From the human T2T-CHM13v2.0 reference genome, Homo sapiens: 64,000 bases of DNA. The notes under the pieces are model-generated. The model was given only the letters and a program-made list of their open reading frames with translations. It ran no database searches and was not told the origin of the DNA. Position 1 is the first letter of the stretch; every line of letters begins with the position of its first letter. The DNA lies in NCBI RefSeq assembly GCF_009914755.1, contig NC_060936.1; one strand, given 5' to 3'. This document shows positions 23,772-51,890 of this stretch, piece by piece. Position numbers and translations under genes: made by a program.

Positions 23772-23917
23772 CTGAACAGGACTGGGTGCAGGATGACTTC
23801 CACCATGTTGGCTTTGCTGCTGTCCAGTGGGGGTAGCTGAAGGCTGAGGGTGTGGAGTATGTGGGTGCAGGGTAGCGTTAGGGTGCGCATACTGCTGAGC
23901 AAGGGAGCCCGTGGAAA
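23772..23917 (-). CDS. ATXN2: ATXN2 exon 22 ((I/V)STGSLAQQY...PSPVQ)
   Basis: ctttag| ... CAG|gtaagg, 146 nt. Confidence 0.96.
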
Positions 23918-26013: not shown

Positions 26014-26511
<498 letters not shown>

Positions 26512-26625
26512 TGATCCGTCCATCTCGGCCTCCCAAAGTGTTGGGATTACAGGTGTGAGCAACTGCACCCGGCCTAAAAATTTATTTTTGAATAATAAAA
26601 AAGCCACATGTAGCTAAGTAGCTAA

Positions 26626-26763
<138 letters not shown>

Positions 26764-27529
26764 TGAGTAGCTAGGACTACAGGCGCGCCTGGCTAACTTT
26801 TTTGTATTTTTAGTAGAGACAGGGTTTCACCATGTTGGTCTGGCTGGTCTTGAACTCCTGACCTCAGGTGATCCACTTGTCTTGGCCTCCCAAAGTGCTG
26901 GGACTACAGGCGTGAGCCACCGCGCCCAGCCACAAAATGTTCTACTGGATAGTGATGTCTACAGTTGTCCATGGTCCCCTACTGTTAAACCATTAGCACT
27001 AACCCCTACCGCCACCCCAGCCTCTTAAAAATGTCATTTGTAACAATCTAAATCTGTCTAAGGAAAAGCAATTCCCAAATCCCAAATTCTGTTCATGGAG
27101 GTTCATAAAGATACAGTACGGAATCTCAGAGGTTTTTGTTTTTTTTTTGTAACTTTATTTATTCAAGAAATTTTGTACTAAAAAGTTTGAAATTTCACTT
27201 TTAAATACCTTCTAAGCAAAGTATTAAGAATATTAAAAAGTAACAATAAATATAGAAAATAATTATGCCCATGAAATCTCATAATTTAAGTTATTCATCA
27301 ACTGGAAAAATGTAAAAATCTTAAAATCATTTGAAGAGAAAAGTAAAGATGAAATATTTTTACTATGCATTTTTAAAAGGCATCTCTGCAATTTAAGTTT
27401 ACCAGTATTTAAAGACTATAATACGGTTTTCTAATCTATAGCTAATTTGCATGCATAGCACAAATACCCAAGCTGAGTGAATGTACATAGGCTTTGTTTA
27501 AAAAAACAAAAACAAAATCCTTTCCCTAC

Positions 27530-27544
27530 CTAAATACCGGTAAA
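27530..27544 (-). CDS. ATXN2: Candidate 15-nt neural-type microexon of ATXN2 ((I/V)YRYL)
   Basis: TGCctTGCaag|TTTACCGGTATTTAG|gtaggg; phase 1-1; ~108-nt AG-free zone; downstream TGCATG. Confidence 0.6.
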   Translation of the reverse strand, partial: FTGI

Positions 27545-29284
27545 CTTGCAAGGCATTGATTAAAAACAAGACGAACAAAAACCACAAAGGATGTGTAAAA
27601 TATGTATCATACGTTGTAAACAAAATTTAAAAAGAGTTAATTAGAAATATTTCCCTTTGTTTTTTTGTTCTAGCTCAAAAGATCTGAAAGAAGTACCTTA
27701 ATCAGGAATTCTTTTCCTCCTTGAATTTGAAATTGGGAGAAATGGAGCCGGGCACGGTGGCTCACGCTTGTAATCCCAGCATTTTGGGAGGCCGAGGCGG
27801 GCGGATCACCTGAGGTTAGGAGTTCGAGACCAGCTTGGCCAACACGGCGAAACCCTGTCTCTACTAAAAATACAAAAATTAGCTGGGCGTGGTGGCAGGC
27901 ACCTGTAATCACAGCTACTAGGGAGAGTGGGGAAGGAGAATAGCTTGAACCCGGGAGGTGGAGGTTGCAGTGAACCGACATCACACCATTGCACTCCAGC
28001 TTGGGCAACAAGAGCGAAACTCCGTCTCAAAAAATAAAATAAACAAATAAATAAATAAATAATAATAATAAATTGGGAGAAATGTGAAACTTATACTTTA
28101 AATCAATACTAGTAACAAAAATACAGTTCGGTTCCTTGATAGGCCAGTTAAGTGACAGTGACACAAAGCAGGGTAGGAAGAAAATTTAAAAGCCAAGGAA
28201 AAAAATAGCTTGGAAGACAAGAGAGACAAAAAAGGAACCAGGGGCCGAGGTAGGTGATCACGAGGTCAGGAGTTCAAGACCAGCCTGGCCAAGATGGTGA
28301 AACCCTGTCTCTACTAAAAATACAAAAAAAATTAGCTGGGTGTGGCAGCAGGCGCCTGTAATCCCAGCTACTCTGGAAGCTGAGGCAGAGAATTGCTTGA
28401 ACCTAGGAGGCGGAGGTTGCAGTGAGCCGAGATCGCACCACTGCACTCCAGCCTGGACGACAGAGTGAGACTCCATCTCAAAAGAAAAAAAAAAAAAAAG
28501 GAACCAAGATAAGGTAAAGAAGGAAAAAACACAGGAGAATCAGGGAAAAGGAGAGTGGAGTGGGAAGGGCAGTGGGTTCTGACCCACACATATTATTTCA
28601 CTGCTTTTGTTATATATGCTCATTCTGGCTAAAGATCCCAGAGAGGTTAAAAATAAAGTTAATTTTATTTGTAATACTGATTTATTCATCAGTTAAACTT
28701 CTATTTATAAAACTTTAGTCTTCATAAAATCTTTTAGATTAAAGATAATCAAAGACATATGCTTCTTTGGTCCAGACCTAGTCCAGAAGTTTCCCACTCA
28801 GTGTTCCTTGACATAAATATTTAAGATTCTAAACATATGATCAGTCAAAAATCCTTAATAACACTAACCACATTCCAGAACTAGTTTCCTCAGCTGTGAT
28901 CTCACTGAAGCAAATTAAGTACAGAAAGCTGTGTGTTTAATTTGTAACTAGGTTTTGTCATTTTGACTTTGGATGCACAAGTCATAAGAGATCACCAGCA
29001 TTGCAAAACTTATAAAACAAAACAAAATCTTCCAACTTGTAAATCTGATGTTAAATTCAGAAAAAGGGAAGTGAAGGAAAGTTGAAAACTCTAAAAGGGG
29101 AATAAAAGGCAACTTGACCAAACCATCATAAAATGGCTTAGAACAGGGGGAAATGAAGCAGCAGATTAAATTAGCAGCCCAACTGTTAGTTTCTTTTAAA
29201 AAGTACTGATACTCCCTTTTAGGGGAAGTTGTGCTAAGGCAATTAAGGCTTAGGTGTTAATGATTAAGGACCTTAGCTACTTAC

Positions 29285-31219: not shown

Positions 31220-31273
31220 TGGCAAAGTAGAAAGAAGGGCTTGTCTCCTTGTTGTATGGTAATTTGGGACATG
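31220..31273 (-). CDS. ATXN2: ATXN2 exon 21, 54-nt cassette exon (ACPKLPYNKETSPSFYFA)
   Basis: aattcag| ... CCA|gtgagt; symmetric phase 1-1; known alternatively spliced segment. Confidence 0.93.
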
Positions 31274-38540: not shown

Positions 38541-51588
<13,048 letters not shown>

Positions 51589-51829
51589 CAATTACTCTTT
51601 TTGAAGAGGATACTATATAATCACAACTGATGGGCATTTTTTCTCCCCTGTTTTTCTTCATAAAATCCATGTGAATATCTATGTAATGTTGTTCATCAAA
51701 AGCCAATGCATAGCCTCATCAAAAAGTCAGAGCTAAACTACAACTATTTATTCATTATAAACTTAGTTACTCAATTCATGCAGCATGCAAACTACAAGCA
51801 AACACAGGCAGGATTATTCTCACCTTTAC

Positions 51830-51890
51830 CTGCTCTATATGTCTTGGCTTGATTCACTGGCATGGGCGTCATAGGTATTGGGTATAAAGG
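51830..51890 (-). CDS. ATXN2: ATXN2 exon 18 (PLYPIPMTPMPVNQAKTYRA; +GK when the donor at 51824 is used)
   Basis: ctctcaag| ... CAG|gtaaag|gtgaga, 61/67 nt. Confidence 0.95.

What the first reader, a model, noticed from the sequence alone, without database searches (positions are those of the whole stretch)
27450..27655. 15-nt microexon candidate with an SRRM4/RBFOX-type signature
On the - strand: a 108-nt AG-free, U-rich zone (27654-27547), TGC motifs at -11..-9 and -6..-4, then AAG|TTTACCGGTATTTAG|GTAGGG, and TGCATG ~75 nt downstream (27450-27455). Inclusion adds (I/V)YRYL in frame. UGC just upstream of the 3' splice site plus downstream UGCAUG is the established architecture of SRRM3/4-dependent neural microexons. 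Neuron-specific use is inference.
Basis: partly seen in the sequence, partly recalled or inferred. Interest (0 to 1): 0.8.

Follow-up and report, generated by a model that had tools for sequence, protein, structure and literature searches.

The report
Unsupported microexon look-alike in ATXN2
A 15-base stretch in an intron of the human ataxin-2 gene has the sequence marks of a brain-specific mini-exon, but no check I could run shows it is ever used, and it is predicted to be locked in an RNA hairpin, so it is most likely an unused look-alike.

Summary
On the minus strand, in ATXN2 intron 21, AAG|TTTACCGGTATTTAG|GTAGGG (27544..27530) follows a 108-nt AG-free zone. UGC lies at -11..-9 and -6..-4, and UGCAUG at +75. 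Inclusion keeps the frame and adds five residues.

The combination is rare. It is the only such site in 264 kb read on both strands, and 0.00-0.05 are expected per 45 kb in shuffles. My thresholds were set after seeing the site.

Nothing shows the exon is used:
- It is not in the RefSeq table.
- 0 of 192 vertebrate ataxin-2 proteins carry an insertion at this junction.
- Its coordinates are absent from all 18 supplementary files of an SRRM4/microexon study that lists other ATXN2 exons.
- Seven full-text searches found no mention of it.
- The paralogue ATXN2L has no counterpart.

New here: the 3' AG, the whole exon and the first base of the donor form one arm of an inverted repeat, predicted as a 19-bp stem of -22.6 kcal/mol with pairing probability 0.95 or more.

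DNA conservation and RNA-seq junctions could not be tested. Best reading: an unused or trace-level pseudo-microexon (about 0.6). A genuine neural microexon is about 0.15.

The parts
27530..27544 (-). Candidate 15-nt exon TTTACCGGTATTTAG. It is in frame and adds five residues (Tyr-Arg-Tyr-Leu-Val after the junction Ile or Val).
   Evidence: sequence, length and phase (572 nt from exon 22 start to the stop, remainder 2).
27545..27546 (-). Candidate 3' splice-site AG, in the context AAG.
   Evidence: Among the 11 annotated internal ATXN2 exons tabulated from the window, an A at -3 is seen only for exon 51824-51890.
27548..27555 (-). Two UGC motifs, at -11..-9 and -6..-4.
   Evidence: Only 1.5% of 18,881 AGs on this strand have at least two TGC within 15 nt.
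27547..27654 (-). 108-nt AG-free zone, 48% U. The part from -45 to -21 is 76% pyrimidine.
   Evidence: Annotated ATXN2 exons in the window have AG-free zones of 11-37 nt.
27640..27644 (-). CUAAU branch-point-like motif at -100..-96. CUCU follows at -92.
   Evidence: The motif definition CUAAY comes from PMC8797185.
27524..27529 (-). Candidate 5' splice site, TAG|GTAGGG.
   Evidence: 7.3 bits on a donor matrix recalled from memory. Annotated ATXN2 donors in the window score 5.3-11.5.
27450..27455 (-). UGCAUG (RBFOX-type hexamer) 75 nt downstream of the candidate donor.
   Evidence: The hexamer occurs 0.23 times per kb on this strand.
27529..27547 (-). 5' arm of an inverted repeat. It covers the AAG of the acceptor, the whole exon and the first G of the donor.
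   Evidence: pair I1; 16 of 17 identical; score 29 against a shuffle maximum of 26; 18-19 bp stem, -22.6 kcal/mol, mean pairing probability 0.98.
27395..27413 (-). 3' arm of the inverted repeat, 117-119 nt downstream. The single difference from the other arm gives a G-U pair in the sense RNA.

Best explanation
This is a pseudo-microexon. It is a single-copy intronic sequence in ATXN2 intron 21 that carries by coincidence the marks of an SRRM4/RBFOX-type microexon, yet is not spliced into ATXN2 mRNA, or only at trace level.

The exon-like 15-mer is not a free-standing element. It is one arm of a short inverted repeat. In the pre-mRNA that repeat is predicted to pair the acceptor AG, the whole 15-mer and the first donor base with a segment about 120 nt downstream. 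Hiding splice sites in a stem is an established way of lowering their use. This is recalled knowledge of cases such as MAPT exon 10 and was not tested here.

Shown: the sequence marks, their rarity, the inverted repeat, the absence from annotation and from the protein models I saw.

Inferred: that the site is not used, and that the stem forms in vivo.
For: 1. The hub's RefSeq table lists no exon at 27530-27544 among the 5 ATXN2 transcripts.

2. 0 of 192 ataxin-2 cluster representatives have any insertion before the exon 22 peptide. They cover mammals, platypus, birds, reptiles and amphibians, and include many NCBI predicted isoforms, for example sheep X13-X44, red fox X26-X38, rabbit X4-X18, red colobus X3-X13, pig X25-X33, rat X5, X6 and X20, and mouse X16. 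The junctions are: 97 join exon 20, 87 join exon 21, 7 are read-through ORFs from genomic contigs, and 1 human partial record uses a different 33-nt exon. That last record shows that small non-RefSeq human exons do reach this database.

3. Head et al. 2021 list ATXN2 exon 21 and exon 24 as vast-tools events. None of the candidate's hg38 or hg19 coordinates occurs in any of their 18 supplementary files.

4. [quoted passage not shown] An Ensembl-based isoform survey names only exon-lacking types (PMC12275423, passages).

5. Full-text searches returned no paper whose read passages (6 papers) or listed titles and abstracts point to an ATXN2 microexon: ATXN2+microexon (14 papers, passages read in 5), ATXN2+micro-exon (1, listing only), ATXN2+SRRM4 (15, listing only), and the coordinates (0 papers). 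Li et al. 2015 has 0 occurrences of ATXN2 in its main text.

6. The stem is predicted at 19 bp and -22.6 kcal/mol. Pairing probabilities are 0.975 and 0.999 for the AG and 0.98 on average for the exon. 0.95 of the pairing is with the specific downstream arm in a 401-nt context. The stem is kept in both the MFE and the centroid structure.

7. Weak points in the splice signals:
- the acceptor is AAG;
- only 65% pyrimidines lie between -20 and -4, the second lowest of 12 sites;
- the only UCUC/CUCU within 155 nt upstream is at -92;
- the donor is middling.

8. In ATXN2L the homologous exons appear separated by only about 90 nt, as read from one tblastn alignment that runs through the gap. There is no exon 21 counterpart.
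Against: - The combined signature is rare. It is the only such site in 528 kb of real sequence scanned, and about 0.00-0.05 are expected per 45 kb in shuffles.
- It keeps the frame without a stop.
- It falls in the disordered C-terminal part of ataxin-2. Li et al. 2015 report that alternative micro-exons favour disordered regions.
- The region is single copy in the T2T genome.
- Its CpG observed/expected ratio of 0.61 is in the top 3.6% of 1,063 non-repeated AT-rich windows. This rests on only 3 CpGs.
- The protein evidence is weak as a negative. The database is clustered at 90% identity, with clusters of 924, 457 and 1,649 members, so isoforms that differ by 5 residues can be hidden. The third search gave no new proteins.
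- A 15-nt size difference could be missed on the 2% agarose gels of PMC7650068.
- No RNA-seq junction data, VastDB, GENCODE or vertebrate alignment could be consulted.
- The overall fold is only marginally better than shuffles: z = -1.83, with 7 of 200 shuffles folding as well.
Confidence: 0.6

Rival explanations
1. It is a genuine SRRM3/4-dependent, RBFOX-enhanced neural microexon of ATXN2 that RefSeq does not annotate. SRRM4 would bind the UGC pair next to a weak acceptor, a distal branch point near -100 would use the first AG downstream, and RBFOX at +75 would help. Neurons would then make ataxin-2 with five extra residues between the exon 21 and exon 22 peptides.
For: - It shows four marks of the published eMIC code plus the downstream TGCATG.
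- The site is unique in 264 kb on both strands.
- It is in frame with no stop.
- It lies in single-copy sequence.
- CpG observed/expected is raised.
Against: - It is absent from the RefSeq table.
- 0 of 192 vertebrate ataxin-2 representatives carry it.
- It is absent from the 18 files of Head et al. 2021 and from the literature searched.
- Neural microexons are described as highly conserved (abstracts of PMC7935315 and PMC12626424 in the listing), yet none of the tetrapod representatives seen carries it.
- The exon is predicted to be buried in a stem.
- There is no UCUC near the acceptor and the donor is only moderate.
Confidence: 0.15
2. It is a latent (cryptic) exon. It is competent for SRRM4-type activation but normally silenced by the stem and/or by repressors bound to the U-rich tract. 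It would be included only at trace level or after a perturbation. The reported SRRM4-dependent in-frame cryptic exon of G3BP1, seen after TDP-43 loss, is the analogy.
For: - The signature is present while annotation is absent.
- The stem covers the acceptor and the exon.
- A UCUU motif lies at -27.
- The G3BP1 preprint proposes transcripts regulated by both TDP-43 and SRRM4 (10.1101/2025.09.17.676845, passages).
Against: - There is no (UG)n run near the site: 0 GUGUG or UGUGU within 155 nt upstream.
- The title and abstract listing of the ATXN2 + cryptic exon search (141 papers, 20 listed) pointed to no cryptic ATXN2 exon; no text was read for this.
- This reading is entirely inferential.
Confidence: 0.15
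3. The primary object is the inverted repeat itself. It would be either the remnant of a small palindromic mobile element or a structured intronic RNA with a role of its own, for example in the choice of the neighbouring cassette exon 21. The splice-site-like ends would then be incidental.
For: - The arms are 16 of 17 identical, extending to 23 of 30.
- The single difference is a CpG-type transition that keeps a G-U pair in the sense RNA.
- Of 30 non-low-complexity inverted repeats of this quality in 264 kb, only about 3 are not Alu pairs. I judged that by eye from Alu motifs I recall. An overlap with the candidate by chance is therefore unlikely.
Against: - No other copy exists in the human genome even at E up to 10, so no repeat family is shown.
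- No target-site duplication was identified (by eye).
- No Rfam family matches inside 27350-27660; all 14 hits in 26500-28500 are Alu-type SRP or miRNA look-alikes elsewhere.
- Conservation or covariation of the stem could not be tested.
Confidence: 0.1

Closest known systems
SRRM3/SRRM4 (eMIC)-dependent neural microexons
   Same: - Length of 3-27 nt and a multiple of three.
- Long AG exclusion zone.
- UGC next to the acceptor.
- U-rich upstream tract.
- CUAAY-type branch-point motif.

The code is as stated in PMC8797185. The features were measured.
   Different: - There is no evidence of inclusion, of neural specificity or of conservation.
- No UCUC lies near the acceptor.
- The donor is only moderate.
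- The exon lies inside a predicted 19-bp stem.
RBFOX/PTBP1-regulated alternative micro-exons (Li et al. 2015, PMC4317164)
   Same: - TGCATG in the downstream flank.
- A pyrimidine-rich upstream flank.
- A position in a disordered protein region (passages).
   Different: - Those exons were defined by RNA-seq reads and have intronic flanks conserved over more than 75 bp. Neither could be shown here.
Known ATXN2 cassette exons (10, 12, 21, 24)
   Same: It is the same gene, and the neighbouring 54-nt exon 21 is a documented cassette exon (PMC7650068; PMC12275423).
   Different: All described variants lack an annotated exon. None adds a new one between exons 21 and 22.
SRRM4-dependent in-frame cryptic exon of G3BP1 (bioRxiv 10.1101/2025.09.17.676845)
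   Same: It would be a short in-frame insertion in a stress-granule protein that depends on SRRM4 and is normally silent (passages).
   Different: The G3BP1 exon is supported by RNA and protein data and by TDP-43 binding sites. Here there are neither data nor UG repeats.
Intronic pseudo-exons (splice-site pairs that are never used)
   Same: It has an AG and a GT at exon-like spacing inside a long intron, with no transcript support. The concept is recalled, not taken from a call.
   Different: Ordinary pseudo-exons do not carry the full microexon enhancer layout. This one does, which is why it stood out.

Membership tests
SRRM3/4 (eMIC)-dependent neural microexon | Exon of 3-27 nt with canonical AG/GT, usually keeping the frame. 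| tested here: met
   15 nt, AG and GT present, phase-1 intron, five residues added, no stop. The length definition comes from the abstract of PMC7935315 in the listing.
SRRM3/4 (eMIC)-dependent neural microexon | UGC motif(s) close to the 3' splice site. | tested here: met
   UGC at -11..-9 and -6..-4. At least two within 15 nt occurs at 1.5% of AGs.
SRRM3/4 (eMIC)-dependent neural microexon | Long AG exclusion zone with a strong branch-point sequence. | tested here: met
   108 nt AG-free, against 11-37 nt for annotated ATXN2 exons. CUAAU at -100. Branch-point use itself was not tested.
SRRM3/4 (eMIC)-dependent neural microexon | Long polypyrimidine tract enriched in UCUC/CUCU. | tested here: inconclusive
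   The -45..-21 segment is 76% pyrimidine but interrupted by G. The only CUCU is at -92, and UCUU is at -27.
SRRM3/4 (eMIC)-dependent neural microexon | High conservation of the exon and its flanks across vertebrates. | tested here: not met
Tested by protein proxy only. 0 of 192 tetrapod ataxin-2 representatives have the insertion, and ATXN2L has no counterpart. Clustering at 90% identity weakens this negative.
SRRM3/4 (eMIC)-dependent neural microexon | Neural-specific inclusion and response to SRRM3/4. | not testable with these tools
   No RNA-seq was available. The coordinates are absent from the 18 supplementary files of Head et al. 2021.
RBFOX-enhanced alternative exon | (U)GCAUG in the downstream intron, conserved and bound by RBFOX. 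| tested here: inconclusive
   One UGCAUG at +75, with a chance of about 2% per 100 nt. Conservation and binding were not testable.
Annotated ATXN2 exon | Present in a transcript or protein record. | tested here: not met
   It is not in the hub's RefSeq table and not in the 192 proteins fetched, which include two human partial records. GENCODE/Ensembl was not available.

The most novel reading that the evidence does not exclude
This would be a real, unannotated neural microexon of ATXN2 whose use is gated by RNA structure. SRRM4 at the UGC pair and RBFOX at +75 would have to compete with a 19-bp stem that hides the acceptor, the exon and the first donor base. Inclusion would put Tyr-Arg-Tyr-Leu-Val into the disordered C-terminal region of ataxin-2. 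Tyr and Arg are 'sticker' residues for condensates (recalled knowledge). The insertion could therefore tune granule behaviour in neurons, in a protein that causes SCA2 and modifies ALS risk.
Probability: 0.12. Interest if true: 0.7.

Novelty: not a real feature. Interest (0 to 1): 0.25.

Why it matters
ATXN2 causes SCA2, modifies ALS risk and is a target of knock-down therapies. A neuron-only protein isoform would therefore matter for biology and for the design of oligonucleotides and assays.

As it stands, the site is a lesson in the limits of motif reading. A near-textbook microexon layout can occur without any sign of use, and here it coincides with a hairpin that would hide it.

The question is cheap to settle. 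A look-up of two junctions in public RNA-seq junction resources, VastDB or GENCODE, plus a vertebrate alignment, would decide it.

Tried and rejected
- **Supplementary tables.**
  - Only Head et al. 2021 could be searched. One search covered 12 of 18 files for 'ATXN2'. One search covered all 18 for the coordinates and found 0.
As a result I did not see the human microexon list of PMC8627023, the VastDB paper tables, Li et al. 2015 Supplemental File 1 or the MicroExonator tables. Any of them could hold this exon.
- **Irimia et al. 2014 (PMC4390143).** The paper is not held.
- **Protein route to isoforms.**
  - Three searches gave 192 distinct proteins. The third added none.
  - An attempt to shift the length filter with a long DNA reference failed on stop codons.
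  - The isoforms inside the large 90% clusters cannot be listed.
- **Real-DNA null.** 200 kb next to the window was fetched.
- **Host contamination as a source of orthologous DNA.** One exact 21-mer hit turned up in a marine bacterium contig. Its flanks are unrelated, so it is a chance match.
- **Repeat family.** No second copy exists in the human genome at E up to 10 and none within 264 kb.
- **Rfam.** Nothing matches at the site.
- **ORFs.** Nothing longer than 42 residues, stop to stop, crosses the site on either strand.
- **Recursive splicing.** Rejected, because the acceptor AG is followed by TTT, not GT.
- **UG-repeat (TDP-43-type) element.** None lies upstream.
- **Outer inverted-repeat pair I2.** It is not collinear with I1 (the sums of its arm coordinates differ by 62). 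I treated it as an AT-rich chance match.
Full report
**What is there**

The window is human chr12 (T2T-CHM13), and the site lies on the minus strand in ATXN2. By the hub's exon table it sits in intron 21 of NM_001372574.1, between exon 21 (31220-31273) and exon 22 (23772-23917). It is 3,675 nt from exon 21 and 3,612 nt from exon 22.

Reading the strand confirms every detail of the finding:
- The previous AG is at 27656/27655.
- A 108-nt AG-free zone follows (27654-27547; T 52 of 108, pyrimidines 68 of 108).
- The sequence then reads ...AATGCCTTGCAAG|TTTACCGGTATTTAG|GTAGGG.
- TGC lies at -11..-9 and -6..-4.
- TGCATG lies at +75 (27455-27450).

From the first base of exon 22 to the end of the stop codon there are 572 nt, which leaves 2 modulo 3. 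The intron therefore interrupts a codon after its first base. The 15-mer reads A|TT TAC CGG TAT TTA G|TT, so five residues are added and there is no stop.

**Is it more than chance?**

The candidate scores 7.3 bits. The 11 annotated or alternative ATXN2 donors in the window score 5.3-11.5, and their acceptors have AG-free zones of only 11-37 nt.

In the 45-kb ATXN2 part of the window:
- The candidate is the only AG..GT pair of length 3n (3-27 nt) with a donor of at least 7 bits and an AG-free zone of at least 50 nt.
- 100 dinucleotide-preserving shuffles gave means of 0.87 sites (AG-free at least 50), 0.05 (at least 100), 0.01 (plus TGC within 15 nt) and 0.00 (plus TGCATG within 100 nt).

I then added 200 kb of real flanking DNA. 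In 264 kb read on both strands:
- The candidate is again the only site with an AG-free zone of at least 80 nt plus TGC within 15 nt.
- The relaxed version (AG-free at least 50) finds 2 sites. By its sequence, the other looks like part of an Alu.

Background rates on the same strand:
- At least one TGC within 15 nt upstream occurs at 20.0% of 18,881 AGs.
- At least two occur at 1.5% of AGs.
- TGCATG occurs 0.23 times per kb.

The thresholds were set after seeing the site. Scaling the shuffle rates by my rough, recalled figure for total intron length suggests some tens of chance sites of this kind genome-wide. The signature is therefore striking in one window, but it is not proof.

**How well does it fit the published code?**

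Torres-Mendez et al. 2022 (PMC8797185, passages) describe eMIC-dependent exons as having:
- long AG exclusion zones;
- UGC close to the acceptor;
- long polypyrimidine tracts enriched in UCUC;
- strong CUAAY branch-point sequences.

They say these features also hold for mammalian targets.

Li et al. 2015 (PMC4317164, passages) report for alternative micro-exons:
- TGCATG is over-represented downstream;
- the intronic flanks are conserved over more than 75 bp;
- the exons are biased towards disordered protein regions.

The candidate compares as follows:

| Feature | Candidate |
|---|---|
| AG exclusion zone | present, 108 nt |
| UGC near the acceptor | two copies |
| Branch-point motif | CUAAU at -100, with no AG before the acceptor |
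| Upstream tract | -45..-21 is 76% pyrimidine |
| Downstream TGCATG | one copy at +75 |
| UCUC/CUCU | nearest at -92 |
| Pyrimidines at -20..-4 | 65%, second lowest of 12 sites |
| Acceptor | AAG |
| Donor | middling |

**Is it used?**

No RNA-seq, GENCODE, VastDB or vertebrate genome alignment is available here, so I used proxies.

*Annotation.* The RefSeq table lists no exon at this position.

*Protein models.* The exon 22 peptide recovers vertebrate ataxin-2 proteins, including many NCBI predicted isoforms and ORFs from assembled contigs. A third search with the mouse version gave no new proteins. The junction before exon 22 in the 192 distinct representatives is as follows:

| Junction before exon 22 | Count |
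|---|---|
| joins exon 20 | 97 |
| joins exon 21 | 87 |
| read-through ORF from a genomic contig | 7 |
| human partial record, exon 18 to a 33-nt exon at 45661-45629 to exon 22 | 1 |
| any insertion at the candidate's position | 0 |

The human partial record was checked.

This negative is only moderate. The database is clustered at 90% identity, with clusters of up to 1,649 members, so isoforms that differ by five residues may be hidden.

*A microexon study.* The supplementary tables of Head et al. 2021 list ATXN2 exon 21 (HsaEX0007260) and exon 24 (HsaEX0007263) with hg38 coordinates. That gave me the conversion hg38 = window + 111,433,442. The candidate's hg38 coordinates, and its hg19 coordinates by a recalled offset, occur in none of the 18 files.

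*Literature.*
- ATXN2+microexon: 14 papers. I read passages in five, and all are irrelevant.
- ATXN2+micro-exon: 1 review, seen in the listing only.
- ATXN2+SRRM4: 15 papers, listing only.
- Ataxin-2 splice variants: 2 papers.
- ATXN2+cryptic exon or intron 21: 141 papers, 20 listed, plus one passage.
- The coordinates themselves: 0 papers.
- Lastres-Becker et al. 2019 (abstract and Results read) and PMC12275423 (passages) describe only variants that lack exons 10, 12, 21 or 24.

*Paralogue.* In ATXN2L the homologues of exons 20 and 22 appear separated by about 90 nt, as read from one tblastn alignment that runs through the gap. There is no exon 21 counterpart. The candidate therefore cannot be an old feature shared by the two genes.

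The candidate is one arm of an inverted repeat.
- The repeat finder reports arms 27382-27411 and 27531-27560 (30 nt, 77% complementary).
- A strict local alignment keeps a 17-nt core, 27395-27411 against 27531-27547, with 16 of 17 matches. Its score is 29, against a shuffle mean of 19.3, SD 2.1 and maximum 26 in 200 shuffles.
- The one difference is a CpG-type transition that leaves a G-U pair in the sense RNA.

Folding results:
- A 196-nt fold pairs AAGUUUACCGGUAUUUAG with the downstream arm in both the MFE (-46.1 kcal/mol) and the centroid structure. The whole-sequence z-score is only -1.83, and 7 of 200 shuffles fold as well.
- The isolated duplex is 19 bp at -22.6 kcal/mol.
- In a 401-nt context, pairing probabilities are 0.975 and 0.999 for the AG and 0.98 on average for the exon. 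0.95 of the pairing is with that specific arm.
- The rest of the donor (0.30-0.50) and the UGCAUG (0.21-0.54) lie in the loop.

In 264 kb there are 30 non-low-complexity inverted repeats of this quality with loops up to about 200 nt. About 27 of them are Alu pairs, judged by eye from Alu motifs I recall. The overlap with the candidate is therefore unlikely to be chance.

No other copy of the region exists in the human genome. No Rfam family matches it. No ORF longer than 42 residues crosses it. Whether the repeat is a remnant of a mobile element or a selected structure cannot be told here.

**Verdict**

Every proxy for use or conservation that I could run is negative, and the exon is predicted to be sequestered in a stem.

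My estimates:
- Unused or trace-level pseudo-microexon: about 0.6.
- Genuine neural microexon: about 0.15.
- Latent exon that needs a perturbation: about 0.15.
- Inverted repeat as the functional or historical object in its own right: about 0.1.

Two junction look-ups and a vertebrate alignment would settle it.

Noticed in passing
window 45629-45661 (minus strand): A 33-nt in-frame exon (tttcttttag|TTAAATACC...GGTATG|gtaagt) is used in a database record named 'ataxin 2, partial [Homo sapiens]' (P0005). The record joins exon 18 to this exon and then directly to exon 22. The exon is not in the hub's RefSeq table.
   Followed up: partly
outside the window: chr12:111509926-111509940 of CHM13, minus strand (L005): This is another microexon-like site inside ATXN2: ttttttctctctatacctgtag|TTCCTTCAGAAACAG|gtaaca. 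It has an 81-nt AG-free zone and a UCUCUC tract. Its frame and use were not examined.
   Followed up: no
window 26500-26930, 27742-28077, 28333-28500: Alu elements flank the site on both sides. Rfam reports them as sub-threshold SRP RNA and mir-1268/mir-3135 look-alikes. A 15-nt direct repeat, AAATTGGGAGAAATG, brackets the Alu at 27730-27744 and 28070-28084 and looks like its target-site duplication.
   Followed up: partly
L022 (G000:C16:29113401-29116400), about 2239-2577: In ATXN2L the homologues of ATXN2 exons 20 and 22 appear to lie about 90 nt apart, read from one tblastn alignment that runs through the gap. There is no counterpart of the alternative exon 21.
   Followed up: partly
G000:C7:16713671-16714264 (minus strand): This stretch is 46% identical to residues 201-435 of the ataxin-2 C-terminal fragment and has one TAG inside. 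It could be an old retrocopy or only a composition-driven match. It was not examined.
   Followed up: no
L023 (Litorilituus lipolyticus contig, 301-321): There is an exact 21-base match to the candidate exon with its splice junctions in a marine bacterium. The flanks are unrelated, so it is a chance match in a very large collection.
   Followed up: yes
window 27450-27655: The CpG observed/expected ratio is 0.61 (3 CpGs). That is in the top 3.6% of 1,063 non-repeated AT-rich 206-nt windows in 264 kb. It is a weak hint of constraint or low methylation, not more.
   Followed up: partly
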